Virus record (IMG/VR): IMGVR_UViG_2718218133_000008
Span: 1-41,956 of that record
Length of the DNA: 41,956 bases
Source: a virus
Taxonomy: Duplodnaviria > Heunggongvirae > Uroviricota > Caudoviricetes
Direction: 5' to 3' (one strand)
Shown here: positions 33,001 through 36,000 of the stretch, piece after piece
Layout of the letters: each line of letters begins with the position of its first letter
How positions within the stretch are numbered: position 1 is the stretch's first letter
Made by a program: the position numbers

Positions 33001-36000
33001 AATTCCGCCATGCTCAGTGCCGGAATTCGTTTCATTCAGCCAGTAATGAAGCTGCTGCAACACAATTGCCTCATTCAGACCAATACGGCATGCAAGATCA
33101 CGATTTATCACAATGGGCTGGGATGTCATTAACAGGCTCATGACCGACCTCTATTTCCCTGAATTTACGACGAAACTGTTCGAGCGGGCTGAAGCACTCA
33201 TGTTCATAGCCTTCACGGAGGTAGATAACCCGTTGTGTTTCCGGCTCCCAACGAATGACTCTGACGGGCACTCCGTAGTGATCTTTGAACCAGCGGTTAA
33301 CTTGTCGCAAAGGACTGTCTCCTTCTGCCGGTTGAAATCCCCCACAGCCCACTCTGCAAAGCTGTGGGTTACAATTTCCCTGTCACCTGGTACATTCACT
33401 GCATAGCAATACTCCACCTTCGCTTTTCCACCCGGTACAGGAAGCGCAATCAGTTGCGAGCGACGGTAGTGTGTTGTTAAACTGTTCATGCGTTAGTTTC
33501 TCCACAACCAGAAGCAATCGACGCCACGACGCCCGGAGCTGCACACTCGCGGGCGTTACTCTTTTCCGGCGCACAAAAAACACGAAATAACAGTGTTAAA
33601 TGCTCCTGCCACTTCGCCATTACTTGGTAGCTGTTCTCTTCGATTTGCTCACGCTCAGCTTGGTCAATAACTCCATCAGCAGTTGCCTTGCGTAAGTACT
33701 GGGAATGCTTGCCAATCCATTCTATTGACTCCATCAGCCGCTGATTAATGTCACCATTGTCAATGTCATCAATGACCACCAGCGGCACAAACACCCCATT
33801 ACTACGACGGGCTATTGCATCCGTTACATGCCTGGTACCACTGGCATCCTGTAAAACCATGGCCCACTCAAGTGGAAAAATTTGATCCCCACCGCTACGC
33901 AGTCTGTTATGCAATTGATCTTTTGCTGGGGTGATATCATCAGATTTATACAAACCAAGAATTTCTGCTGCTTCCTCATAGCCATGAGGTAAATCAGCAA
34001 TCGTTCTTCGTATTGCTGCCACCAGCCATGCTGGTTGCTTATCAACTTTCCATTCAGGTTCTTTACCCACGTTTAAGCCCTCATATCTGTGGTTTCTGTA
34101 AATCGATTTATCCATTAGATTTTTCATAAAGCTCAGGTTTAAATGGCAACCGTCCGCAAGTTCTATATGCAGCCTCTGCTGCACGTCCTTTTGGAATTAA
34201 CTGGTCAGGACGGTTTCGCCACTGATAAACGGCTTCAGTTGTTATGCCGAAAAAAGCAGCAACTTTCTCAATGCTGCCGAAGTAGCTTTCGATATCGTCA
34301 GTCGTCATATGCCCTCCAAACTAAGTTTTATTAGATGTTAATTATCAATCTATCTTAGGTCAATAAAAACTAAGATTACTTAGTAATTAAAGAAATGGTG
34401 CTCCTATGGAAACGGTTGGTCAGCGTATAAAAGCTCTGAGAAGAGTTACCAGAACGTCCCAGAAAGAATTGGGTAAATTTTGTGGAGTAAGTGACGTTGC
34501 TGTGGGGTACTGGGAGAAAGACATCAATGTCCCTGGTGGGGAAGCACTTTCAAAATTAGCGAAGTTCTTCAATACGTCAATAGATTACATTCTTTATGGT
34601 GCGGAGTTTGAAGGCAAACTCGTCACAAACATGCGCAGAGTTCCTGTAATCTCGTGGGTTCAGGCTGGGCAGTTTACTGAGTGCAGGACAGCAGAAGTGT
34701 TTAGTGAAGTAGACAAGTGGGTAGATACATCATTAAAGATTGGTGATAACTCATTTGCATTGGAGGTTAAAGGCGACTCCATGACTAACCCTAACGGCCT
34801 CCCAACAATACCAGAAGGCGCAACAGTGATTGTAGATCCTGATGCAGAACCCCGGCATGGAAAAATAGTCATCGCTAGACTTGATGGAACAAACGAAGCC
34901 ACAGTAAAAAAATTAGTTATCGATGGCCCTCAAAAGTTTTTAGTGCCATTAAATCCCCGGTACCCCAACATCCCGATCAATGGTAATTGCCTCATCATTG
35001 GTGTAGTCAAAGGAGTTCAATACGAACTCTAGCCCCCCTTTTCTCTAACCAAAACACCGAACTAAGAAAAGTTTGGTGTTTTCTCTTGCCATCAAAACTA
35101 AGTTAAGTTAGATTTTATATCAAAGATAACGAACAGGCAGGACGCCCACGAAGTAGCCGCCGGTGGCATATGAATGACCGGATGATTCGTTAGCAACAAA
35201 AAAAGCGCCATATAGGACGCTTCGCTCTTTAACAATCCTGGTATCCCCGTAACAAAAGAGGGTTCTATGGTCATATTCTGTGCTTACGTTCATCCTAATG
35301 GATTTTTTATCAGCACCAACCAACAAGACGAATTCTGGATTCTACTTAGTAAGCAGGTCGGATGGGGACGATTCTGTCTAATCCGACCAGAATCAGAATT
35401 TACAGAGAATGGAGGGCTTTTTGAATTACGTGAAATACGTCCGGCAGATGGTCAAGCCCCTGACCAAGTAATCGAATCGTCAGCTGTTTTATGGCGTCGG
35501 CAGGAAGCGTTCGAAGCTGAGAGAGTAATTTCTTCTTATCTTCAGTCGTGGCAGAAGTAGAACTATTGATGATACGTTCAAGTTCACAGAGAGTCTCATC
35601 ATGCAATCTTATTGTCATAATCCCAAGAATAGCTTTAAGACCTCCATCATCACGAATGAAATCAATTCCATCTTTAGTAATTCTTAATTCAGGAATATTT
35701 ATATTTATGCCATCCAAGTAATAATCAAGAGCATTCTTAATCAAGCCATGTTCTTCGAGATAAATTAAGTTCGAAATTAGGACATTATCATCTCCAAATG
35801 CGTCACGAACAGACTGCAACGCATCATCAGAAATTTCATAAGGATGAGCATCATACAGTATTTGTAACAACTGCCTTTGTGCACTTCTATCAAATTTGTC
35901 CATCTTAAATAATCACCATGTTATTGGGGGTATCAAGATTAACCGAATCCTTGTTGTTGGGGAATAACCAGGTCCACCTCGCCTGATGTGGCTAAAAGCA

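What the first reader, a model, noticed from the sequence alone, without database searches (positions are those of the whole stretch)
35110..35925. Uncharacterised AT-rich gene in the immunity region, antisense to early-left transcription
Seen in sequence: a 167-aa ORF on the minus strand between cI/OL and the first early-left gene, in low-GC DNA, convergent with cI and antisense to any leftward early transcript. Established knowledge: this position in lambda holds rexA/rexB, and immunity-region morons are usually lysogen-expressed exclusion or defence genes. The protein has a winged-helix-like N-terminus but no family I can name with confidence.
Basis: partly seen in the sequence, partly recalled or inferred. 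Interest (0 to 1): 0.6.

Follow-up and report, generated by a model that had tools for sequence, protein, structure and literature searches.

The report
Overlapping two-gene prophage accessory cassette
The 167-codon gene is real, but it is only half of a portable prophage cassette: a second, almost never annotated 97-codon gene runs the other way and shares 161 bases with it, and the pair is found in hundreds of prophages with no known function.

Summary
The 167-aa ORF exists (35400-35903, minus strand, GC 0.35-0.40). It lies downstream of an OL/PL-like site, antisense to the early-left transcript. It belongs to a large uncharacterised family: PHROG 3983, 1136 cluster representatives, no Pfam, NCBIfam or PADLOC model. 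The model shows an acidic winged-helix N-domain and a helical C-domain.

It converges on the 167-aa gene and overlaps its 3' end by 161 nt. This partner sits at the same place in at least 84 of 132 family loci, always convergent. Three tests support it as a gene:
- dN/dS is 0.31 in its non-overlapping part.
- Its frame stays open where synonymous resampling predicts about 1%.
- Most copies have ATG starts and Shine-Dalgarno-like sequences.

Gene callers almost never report it.

The cassette (about 35224-36010) is 78% identical to a copy in an unrelated Salmonella prophage type. It occupies a slot that is empty or holds unrelated cargo in sister phages.

Function is not shown. My best inference is that the 167-aa protein is made in the lysogen and the partner in lytic growth, as exclusion plus self-immunity. 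The lambda analogue by position is sieB, not rexAB.

The parts
35400..35903 (-). 167-aa gene ('FAM'). It is a member of PHROG 3983. The model shows an acidic winged-helix N-domain (residues 1-83), a conserved GIDFxRDDGGLxAIL..T..H segment (75-104) and a four-helix C-domain.
   Evidence: ORF. PHROG 3983 at E 2.6e-59 over the full length. Homologues. Alignments A1 and A2. AF2 models. Fold searches. pI 5.0, no hydrophobic segment.
35267..35560 (+). 97-aa partner gene, convergent with FAM. It is the first ORF on the PL-like transcript and is essentially unannotated in public data.
   Evidence: Conserved at protein level in Salmonella and PhiR49_2 loci. An HMM finds it in 76, then 84, of 132 FAM loci. 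All copies are convergent and start 61-139 nt (first search) or 118-208 nt (later set, median 133) after the FAM stop, with a median length of 100 aa. Open-frame test. dN/dS 0.31. Only about 30 predicted proteins exist in 5.8 billion. No Pfam, PHROG or PDB match, and no meaningful PADLOC match.
35400..35560 (.). 161-nt stretch that encodes the C-termini of both proteins on opposite strands.
   Evidence: Coordinates. The overlap across the family has a median of 170 nt.
35257..35262 (+). Shine-Dalgarno-like AGAGGG, 4 nt before ATG 35267.
   Evidence: Sequence. Shine-Dalgarno-like sequences precede 28 of 39 distinct partner ORFs.
35195..35223 (-). Intrinsic terminator for the FAM transcript: an 8-bp stem followed by TTTTTGTTGCT.
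   Evidence: Terminator scan. RNA fold of the FAM 3' UTR. The terminator is shared with SfIV and Kati, which carry other minus-strand cargo.
35904..36010 (-). 5' module that travels with the cassette. It holds two CCCCAAYAAC repeats (35920-35929, 35953-35962), the motif AATCTTGATACCCCC (35926-35940) and a promoter-like TTGATA-16-GATTAT (35936-35909). The promoter is not established.
   Evidence: Homology to the Salmonella copies. Motifs. Promoter scan.
35234..35248 (+). AATCCTGGTATCCCC. It is an inverted copy of the motif at the other end of the cassette and lies 19 nt before the partner ORF's start codon.
   Evidence: 3 matches against 0.05 expected. Two of them flank the cassette in inverted orientation.
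35224..36010 (.). Extent of the portable cassette.
   Evidence: 78.5% identical over 795 aligned positions to a Salmonella locus in a Cox/Ash/RecE/integrase prophage. The variable segment against sister phages runs about 35190/35256 to 35919/35973.
35061..35114 (+). OL/PL-like region: two operator-like sites (35061-35075, 35097-35111) and TTGCCA-17-TAGATT.
35051..35082 (+). Hairpin after the repressor gene (13-nt arms, 92% complementary). It is the likely terminator of cI.
   Evidence: I13. Sequence.

Best explanation
What it is (shown). It is a portable two-gene prophage accessory cassette of about 790 bp. It sits in a hypervariable slot between OL/PL and the conserved leader of the early-left genes (yfdP onward). 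The two genes lie tail to tail and share 161 nt. FAM (167 aa) is on the strand opposite to lytic transcription. The partner (97 aa) is on the lytic strand.

How it is probably expressed (inferred from layout). FAM would be transcribed in the lysogen from its own 5' module and stopped by its own terminator before it reaches OL/PL. The partner is the first ORF downstream of PL, so it would be made only when the repressor is lost. In many other phages a terminator ends about 20 nt before the partner's start. There it would need antiterminated lytic transcription. Lytic transcription would also collide with FAM transcription and give RNA antisense to it.

What it probably does (inferred, not shown). 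FAM is a soluble, non-enzymatic, probably dimeric winged-helix protein. I propose that it interferes with the lytic growth of incoming phages. I propose that the partner neutralises FAM when the resident prophage itself goes lytic. That is the logic of P22 SieB/Esc and BstA/aba.

Confidence. I put about 0.85 on the two-gene cassette, about 0.6 on the lysogenic-versus-lytic expression split, and about 0.35-0.4 on exclusion plus self-immunity. The figure given for the whole statement is 0.4.
For: Two-gene unit:
- 76 of 76 first-pass hits are convergent and start 61-139 nt after the FAM stop.
- After iteration, 84 of 132 loci have the partner. Of these, 73 have a start codon near the model start, 68 of them ATG. 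Median length is 100 aa and median overlap 170 nt.
- There are no antisense stops in 2670 overlapped codons, against 0.066 per codon in the rest of FAM in the same frame. Synonymous resampling keeps the frame open with median P 0.007.
- dN/dS is 0.31 in the 44 non-overlapping codons.
- 74 of 80 IMG/VR loci found with the partner profile carry a full convergent FAM.

Portability:
- The cassette 35224-36010 is 78.5% identical to a copy in a different Salmonella prophage type.
- Copies also lie between Q and holin, between lysis genes and terminase, after cI, and after an Arc/Mnt-like gene.

Slot:
- It is empty in 45 of 80 sister loci, or holds at least 8 unrelated cargos.

Orientation:
- 41 of 56 neighbouring genes of at least 100 aa in 28 non-redundant viral loci are opposite to FAM (p 7e-4).
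- 17 of 19 nearby repressor-like genes are co-oriented with FAM.
- 18 of 39 distinct loci have an intrinsic terminator on the partner's strand that ends 16-26 nt before its ATG in 17 of them (47 nt in the other).

PL assignment.

Not a classical toxin-antitoxin pair:
- FAM occurs without the partner in roughly 25 of 132 loci.
- The partner survives with FAM reduced to the overlapped remnant, or with no called FAM gene beside it.
- That pattern fits a defence that can stand alone and an antidote that is useful alone.

Precedent: lambda sieB lies antisense inside the PL operon.
Against: - There is no expression data and no phenotype.
- No PADLOC, Pfam or NCBIfam model of a known defence matches either protein.
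- The FAM promoter is not defined. The only consensus-like site (TTGATA-16-GATTAT) overlaps the presumed ribosome-binding site. Promoter-like hits in the region are no more frequent than in shuffled sequence.
- In this window the hairpin's T-run is on the FAM strand, not the partner's, so the terminator-gating argument comes from other loci.
- Neighbour orientation is not significant in the genome-derived loci, where my ORF calling is crude (p 0.31).
- The roles could be reversed, or the pair could regulate the phage's own development.
- The partner could not be modelled and no complex prediction was possible.
Confidence: 0.4

Rival explanations
1. Regulator and effector (toxin-antitoxin-like or switch-like). 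FAM would be a PadR/MarR-like DNA-binding dimer that binds the inverted AATCYGGATATCC-type motifs at both ends of the cassette. It would repress itself and the partner. The partner would be the effector or a counter-regulator, released when FAM is lost or when lytic transcription reads through.
For: - The winged-helix fold has PadR and MarR as its closest solved structures, and the architecture of a winged helix plus a C-terminal helical domain resembles long PadR proteins.
- A shared motif lies in inverted orientation before both start codons. It is a perfect GGATATCC palindrome in the Salmonella copies.
- One phage record annotates a homologue as 'putative transcriptional regulator'.
Against: - The presumed recognition helix has a median of 1 K/R and 2 D/E across 130 members and no conserved basic position. 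The N-domain of this copy carries net charge -8.
- Fold matches are generic, with Foldseek E>=0.04.
- The motif is seen only in the E. coli/Salmonella subgroup and not in other loci.
- The partner persists without an intact FAM. That is hard to reconcile with a toxin that needs FAM.
Confidence: 0.25
2. A module for the phage's own development. The pair would tune induction, antirepressor activity or early and late timing of the resident phage rather than act on other phages.
For: Recurrent placement next to lysogeny regulators: CI-type, XRE-type and Arc/Mnt-like repressors, and BRO/Ant-like genes.
Against: - The slot is empty in 45 of 80 sister phages, including isolated phages, so the cassette is dispensable.
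- The same cassette sits in late-operon positions far from any regulator.
Confidence: 0.15
3. Single-gene moron. The 97-aa antisense frame would be a by-product of FAM's codons and 3' UTR and would not be translated.
For: Gene callers almost never report it. No database family exists for it. Half of it must be conserved simply because FAM is.
Against: - dN/dS is 0.31 in the part that lies outside FAM.
- The start is ATG in 68 of 73 copies, and Shine-Dalgarno-like sequences are common.
- The open frame is kept where resampled synonymous codons close it about 99% of the time.
- It survives intact where FAM has decayed to the overlapped remnant.
Confidence: 0.07
4. A RexAB-type or SieB-type membrane-acting abortive-infection system.
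For: Position in the immunity and early-left region. Orientation like lambda sieB.
Against: - There is no sequence similarity to SieB (BLASTP E 43).
- FAM has no hydrophobic segment (maximum Kyte-Doolittle 19-residue mean 0.83).
- The genes are not on the cI strand between cI and OL, as rexAB are.
Confidence: 0.02

Closest known systems
Lambda / P22 sieB (with Esc)
   Same: A gene inside the early-left (PL) operon on the strand opposite to PL transcription. From established knowledge: it is expressed in the lysogen from its own promoter, aborts superinfecting phages, and the carrier phage escapes through a second product encoded in the same DNA (Esc).
   Different: No sequence similarity. FAM has no hydrophobic segment of the kind expected for a membrane-associated protein such as SieB. 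Esc is an in-frame internal product of sieB, whereas here the second product is read from the opposite strand.
Lambda rexA/rexB
   Same: An accessory module next to the repressor in a lambdoid immunity region.
   Different: rexAB lie between cI and OL, on the cI strand. By established knowledge they are co-transcribed with cI. Here the genes lie beyond OL/PL, FAM converges on cI, there is no homology, and FAM has no transmembrane segment.
BstA with its aba self-immunity element (PMC8585504)
   Same: A prophage-encoded defence near the repressor, with a self-immunity determinant embedded in the same locus. This is the logic I propose.
   Different: That comparison rests on the paper's abstract and my own knowledge. 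There is no homology. aba is a DNA element and not an antisense protein gene. Defence is not shown here.
PadR/MarR-type winged-helix regulators; Pfam DUF2513 and YjcQ
   Different: This protein itself matches neither Pfam model. The recognition helix lacks conserved basic residues. The C-domain and the DDGGL segment have no counterpart. DUF2513 and YjcQ have no described function in the papers searched.
Morons of lambdoid phages (HK97/HK022 definition)
   Same: Foreign GC content, own terminator, presence or absence between close relatives, and insertion between genes of a lytic operon.
   Different: Two overlapping convergent genes rather than one promoter-gene-terminator unit. The promoter is not established.

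Membership tests
PHROG 3983 (function unknown) | Full-length match to the family profile | tested here: met
   E 2.6e-59, residues 1-165 on profile positions 1-164 of 165.
Pfam DUF2513 / YjcQ winged-helix families | Score above the Pfam gathering cut-off | tested here: not met
   The window protein does not hit either family. 51 and 13 of 130 relatives give weak hits, best E 4.5e-6 and 1.1e-3. The relationship is a distant fold-level one at most.
PadR/MarR DNA-binding regulators | Winged-helix fold | tested here: met
PadR/MarR DNA-binding regulators | Basic, conserved recognition helix and wing; DNA binding | tested here: not met
   H3 has a median of 1 K/R and 2 D/E, with no conserved basic column in residues 39-73. 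The N-domain carries net charge -8. Binding itself is not testable here.
RexAB | Located between cI and OL, on the cI strand, co-transcribed with cI | tested here: not met
   The operator-like sites at 35061 and 35097 lie between cI and the cassette, and FAM is on the opposite strand.
RexAB | Multi-pass membrane component (RexB) | tested here: not met
   FAM has no hydrophobic segment. The partner's sequence shows no long hydrophobic run.
SieB | Antisense position inside the PL operon | tested here: met
SieB | Sequence homology to SieB | tested here: not met
   BLASTP E 43.
Moron (promoter-gene-terminator insert) | Own terminator, deviant GC, polymorphic presence among relatives | tested here: met
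   Terminator at 35223->35202. GC 0.35-0.40. The slot is empty or differently filled in sister phages.
Moron (promoter-gene-terminator insert) | Own promoter active in the lysogen | tested here: inconclusive
   There is one 9/12 consensus match (35936-35909) that overlaps the ribosome-binding site. Promoter-like hits are not enriched over shuffles. Activity is not testable here.
Type II toxin-antitoxin pair | Co-directional bicistronic operon; neither gene kept without the other | tested here: not met
   The genes are convergent. FAM-only and partner-only loci exist.
Known anti-phage defence systems (PADLOC v2.0) | Match to a model of a known or candidate system | tested here: not met
   FAM: only scattered single-member hits among 130 relatives. 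Partner: 3 of 25 weak hits to PDC-M06B, best E 0.004, with no PDC-M06A hit for FAM.

The most novel reading that the evidence does not exclude
The pair may be a previously unrecognised, widespread prophage system. Its two proteins, a lysogen-phase inhibitor of phage growth and its lytic-phase antidote, would be written on opposite strands of the same DNA. The orientation of transcription, lysogenic or lytic, would then decide which one is made. The antidote gene would be invisible to standard annotation in hundreds of phage genomes.
Probability: 0.3. Interest if true: 0.8.

Novelty: new variant of a known kind. Interest (0 to 1): 0.62.

Why it matters
The kind of element is familiar: a portable accessory cassette in a prophage immunity region. 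The content is not. Neither protein has a described relative.

The second gene is a conserved antisense overlapping gene that annotation pipelines skip. About 30 calls exist among 5.8 billion proteins, against more than a thousand clusters for its partner.

If the two products oppose each other, this is a compact way to tie a function to the lysogenic or lytic state, and it can be tested directly.

The site also marks a cargo-swapping slot downstream of PL in a very common group of E. coli and Shigella prophages. More than half of the complete E. coli genomes searched match its flanks. All the cargo seen there lacks a known function.

Tried and rejected
- Pfam, NCBIfam, PADLOC and PHROGs on FAM: only PHROG 3983, function unknown.
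- PDB sequence searches with profiles of both proteins: nothing.
- Literature searches for DUF2513, YjcQ, the RefSeq accession WP_000357060 and immunity-region hotspots gave nothing functional. The SfIV paper calls the alternative cargo in this slot 'no clear function'.
- The Brenes & Laub 2025 paper on E. coli prophage defences, which might cover the ECOR-derived phage PhiR49_2, is not held.
- RexAB and SieB homology: rejected.
- Looking for a conserved co-directional partner gene: none found. The only recurrent neighbours are CI-type repressors.
- Pfam and PADLOC on eight alternative cargos of the slot gave only weak LprI-like and HTH_17 hits.
- Defining the FAM promoter by consensus and by comparing cargo variants gave inconsistent spacing, so it is left open.
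- The inverted end motif as a general operator: it is found only in the E. coli/Salmonella subgroup.
- A third match of that motif at 41615 lies inside a coding region, and I take it as chance.
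Full report
**1. The observation**

The window is a CPS-53/SfV-like lambdoid prophage of E. coli. In this orientation the layout is as follows:
- The LexA/S24-type repressor (34406-35032) is on the plus strand.
- cro (34108-34308), a CII/YmfL-like gene and the replication gene O are on the minus strand.
- yfdP, yfdQ and yfdR follow on the plus strand from about 36365.

GC falls to 0.35-0.40 there.

The repressor's operator pattern, ACTAAGN5TTAG, occurs in the whole 42-kb window only between cro and cI (34320, 34369) and at 35061 and 35097. 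The last site overlaps a promoter-like TTGCCA-17-TAGATT on the plus strand (35086-35114). It follows the hairpin that ends the repressor gene (35051-35082).

The ORF therefore lies downstream of an OL/PL-like region. It converges on cI and is antisense to the early-left transcript. The description is correct.

**2. The 167-aa gene (FAM) is real and belongs to a large unnamed family**

- It matches PHROG 3983 (function unknown) end to end at E 2.6e-59. It matches nothing in Pfam, NCBIfam or PADLOC.
- A word-indexed search gave 30 close homologues, all 'hypothetical'.
- A profile search of 1.84 billion representatives gave 1136 hits at E<=1e-3. Of these, 354 were at E<=1e-30. Nearly all are 155-175 aa with a single match.
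- IMG/VR holds 480 relatives.
- Genome hits are almost all Gamma-, Beta- and Alphaproteobacteria, with one Gemmatimonadaceae MAG. Several genomes carry two copies.
- 76 of 5426 complete E. coli genomes carry the gene at >=99% identity.

Near-invariant positions are R6, Q9, P21, Y48, L49, H52, T76, G79, D81, F82, D86, G87, G88, A91, T97, K123 and P154. The densest block is GIDFxRDDGGLxAIL..T..H at residues 75-104.

AlphaFold2 with 130 sequences gives pLDDT 88 and two confident domains:
- a winged helix in residues 1-83;
- a four-helix domain in residues 100-167.

The two domains are joined by a low-confidence stretch (84-100) that holds the most conserved motif.

The protein is acidic (pI 5.0, N-domain net charge -8) and has no hydrophobic segment. 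Its presumed recognition helix has no conserved basic residue. Ordinary operator binding is therefore not well supported.

**3. The second gene**

I compared the window with Salmonella homologues of FAM (77% and 62% amino-acid identity). They sit in a different prophage type that carries Cox, Ash, RecE and integrase genes. About 100 nt upstream and about 180 nt downstream of FAM are homologous as well. The downstream part encodes, on the opposite strand, a peptide conserved through synonymous changes.

In the window this is the plus-strand ORF 35267..35560 (97 aa). It is preceded by AGAGGG four bases before the ATG.

*Distribution.* A profile made from four such peptides hit 76 of 132 FAM loci. 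Every hit was convergent with FAM and started 61-139 nt after its stop. After three iterations:
- 84 loci had a hit, and 73 of these had a start codon at the model start;
- 68 of those starts were ATG;
- the median length was 100 aa (range 94-133 apart from one truncated 26-aa copy);
- the median overlap with FAM was 170 nt.

At least 15 more loci hold diverged copies that are recognisable by eye.

*Tests against a by-product frame:*
1. In 46 distinct sequences, the partner's frame has no stop in 2670 overlapped codons. The same antisense frame has 0.066 stops per codon in the rest of FAM. Resampling FAM's synonymous codons keeps the frame open with median probability 0.007.
2. In the 44 codons that lie outside FAM, the median dN/dS is 0.31, and 84% of pairs are below 0.5.
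3. The ORF stays intact where FAM has decayed to the overlapped remnant. This holds in three IMG/VR loci and one Gilliamella prophage. In one locus no FAM gene is called beside it.

*Annotation status.* The partner has no match in Pfam, PHROGs or the PDB, and no meaningful match in PADLOC. Only about 30 predicted proteins in 5.8 billion resemble it. It is essentially unannotated. A few metagenome gene calls do report both overlapping genes.

*Linkage.* In the other direction, 74 of 80 IMG/VR loci found with the partner profile carry a full convergent FAM.

**4. A portable cassette in a cargo-swapping slot**

The stretch homologous to the Salmonella copy is 35224-36010, at 78.5% identity.

Sister phages share the flanks only. 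Phages SfV, SfIV, Kati and mEp460_4F5 match the left side up to 35189-35255 and the right side from 35920 or 35974.

Among 80 IMG/VR loci anchored on yfdP, the slot is as follows:
- It is empty in 45.
- Otherwise it holds unrelated cargo, mostly on the minus strand. Examples are an LprI-like secreted protein, the 144-aa SfIV_36 type, a 164-aa membrane protein and a coiled-coil zinc-ribbon protein.
- Five unrelated cargos start at the same offset from the conserved flank.
- None of the cargos matches a known defence.

FAM-partner cassettes also occur in other genome positions:
- between Q and holin;
- between the lysis genes and terminase;
- directly after cI (Acinetobacter phage AbIPP1);
- overlapping the stop codon of an Arc/Mnt-like gene (Edwardsiella phage GF-2).

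**5. Expression logic (inferred)**

FAM is usually on the strand opposite to its neighbours. In 28 non-redundant viral loci, 41 of 56 neighbouring genes of at least 100 aa are opposite (p 7e-4). In the genome-derived loci the trend is not significant, and my ORF calling there is crude.

Of the 19 loci with a repressor-like gene within four ORFs, 17 have it co-oriented with FAM. This window is an exception.

In the window, the FAM transcript would end at an intrinsic terminator (35223->35202) just before OL/PL. The partner is the first ORF on the PL transcript.

In 18 of 39 distinct loci elsewhere, an intrinsic terminator lies on the partner's strand. In 17 of these it ends 16-26 nt before the partner's ATG. 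There the partner would be reached only by read-through or antiterminated transcription.

The FAM promoter is not established. The one consensus-like site overlaps the presumed ribosome-binding site.

**6. Function**

Nothing here shows a function.

The layout points to a lysogen-phase protein and a lytic-phase partner encoded on the same DNA. Each gene can occur without the other, which argues against a strict toxin-antitoxin dependence. It fits a stand-alone inhibitor plus an antidote.

The nearest precedents for that logic are P22/lambda SieB with Esc and BstA with aba. Lambda sieB also shares the position, antisense inside the PL operon, whereas rexAB do not. There is no sequence similarity to SieB.

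I put about 0.4 on exclusion with self-immunity. The rivals are:
- a winged-helix regulator with an effector, 0.25;
- a module for the phage's own development, 0.15;
- a single gene with a meaningless antisense frame, 0.07.

**7. Verdict**

- It is an accessory, probably lysogen-expressed, gene of unknown family.
- The lambda analogy should be sieB rather than rexAB.
- The unit is a two-gene overlapping cassette.

It is a new variant of a known kind. It is of moderate to high interest because the second gene is conserved, widespread and overlooked, and because the model can be tested directly.

Noticed in passing
window 35190-35973 (slot); loci L090-L169: The slot between OL/PL and the conserved pre-yfdP leader is a cargo-swapping site. 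It is empty in 45 of 80 sister loci. Otherwise it holds at least 8 unrelated small genes, mostly on the minus strand, and five of them start at the same offset (-69/-70) from the conserved flank. None matches a known defence or a Pfam family with confidence.
   Followed up: partly
L002 875-1487 (phage Kati); L007 2591-2887 and nearby (SfV); L093, L100, L112: Other cargo types in the same slot also look like convergent pairs: a small plus-strand ORF facing a minus-strand ORF, often overlapping. In Kati the annotated CDS 875-1081 (+) and 1053-1487 (-) form such a pair. Tail-to-tail pairs may be a general feature of this slot.
   Followed up: no
window 35974-36364 (+): A GC-rich leader of about 390 nt before yfdP is conserved in 69 phage records and thousands of E. 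coli genomes. It has a sub-threshold Rfam match to sRNA STnc100 (36027-36229, 36.3 bits against a gathering score of 47, E 1.4e-5). It also has a long hairpin (arms 36228-36252 and 36292-36316). It could be a structured early-left leader, but I did not analyse it further.
   Followed up: no
window 35974-36010: The right end of the portable cassette (homologous to the Salmonella copy up to 36010) runs about 37 nt into the leader that all yfdP-type phages share, including those with an empty slot. This could be a short shared sequence at which cassettes are exchanged.
   Followed up: no
window 35234-35248 (+) and 35926-35940 (-); L251, L253: The motif AATCYKGRTAYCCCC lies in inverted orientation before both start codons of the cassette (3 matches in the window against 0.05 expected). 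In the Salmonella copies it contains a perfect GGATATCC palindrome. It is not seen in more distant cassettes.
   Followed up: partly
L022-L062 and others (18 of 39 distinct loci): An intrinsic terminator on the partner ORF's own strand ends 16-26 nt before its ATG in 17 of the 18 loci (47 nt in the other). The hairpin sequences differ between loci. This suggests the partner is reached only by read-through or antiterminated transcription.
   Followed up: partly
L254 2989-3445 (Gilliamella apicola prophage); L288-L290; L260: The partner ORF is intact while FAM is reduced to the overlapped C-terminal remnant (L254, L288-L290). In L260 no FAM gene is called beside the partner. Conversely, roughly 25 of 132 FAM loci lack the partner.
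   Followed up: partly
window 40968-41956 (-): At the right edge of the window, in low-GC DNA, a 190-aa SocA/Panacea-domain protein (41384-41956, PF13274 at E 2.2e-19) is followed by a 139-aa ORF with no family (40968-41387), and the two overlap by 4 nt. The layout is that of a PanA-type toxin-antitoxin pair.
   Followed up: partly
window 39814-40707 (+): The early-left region carries an Rv2179c-like 3'-5' exoribonuclease (39814-40389, E 4e-75) and a PrtN-like pyocin-activator protein (40399-40707, E 4e-23). An Rv2179c-like gene also lies near the FAM cassette in the Salmonella prophages.
   Followed up: no
L010-L019 against the window: 100% identical copies of the cassette have different left-hand neighbours: the 208-aa repressor in some loci, and 358-aa and 253-aa ORFs in others. 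A related locus in the yfdP set carries a ParA-like ATPase at this position. This suggests recent exchange between immunity types.
   Followed up: no
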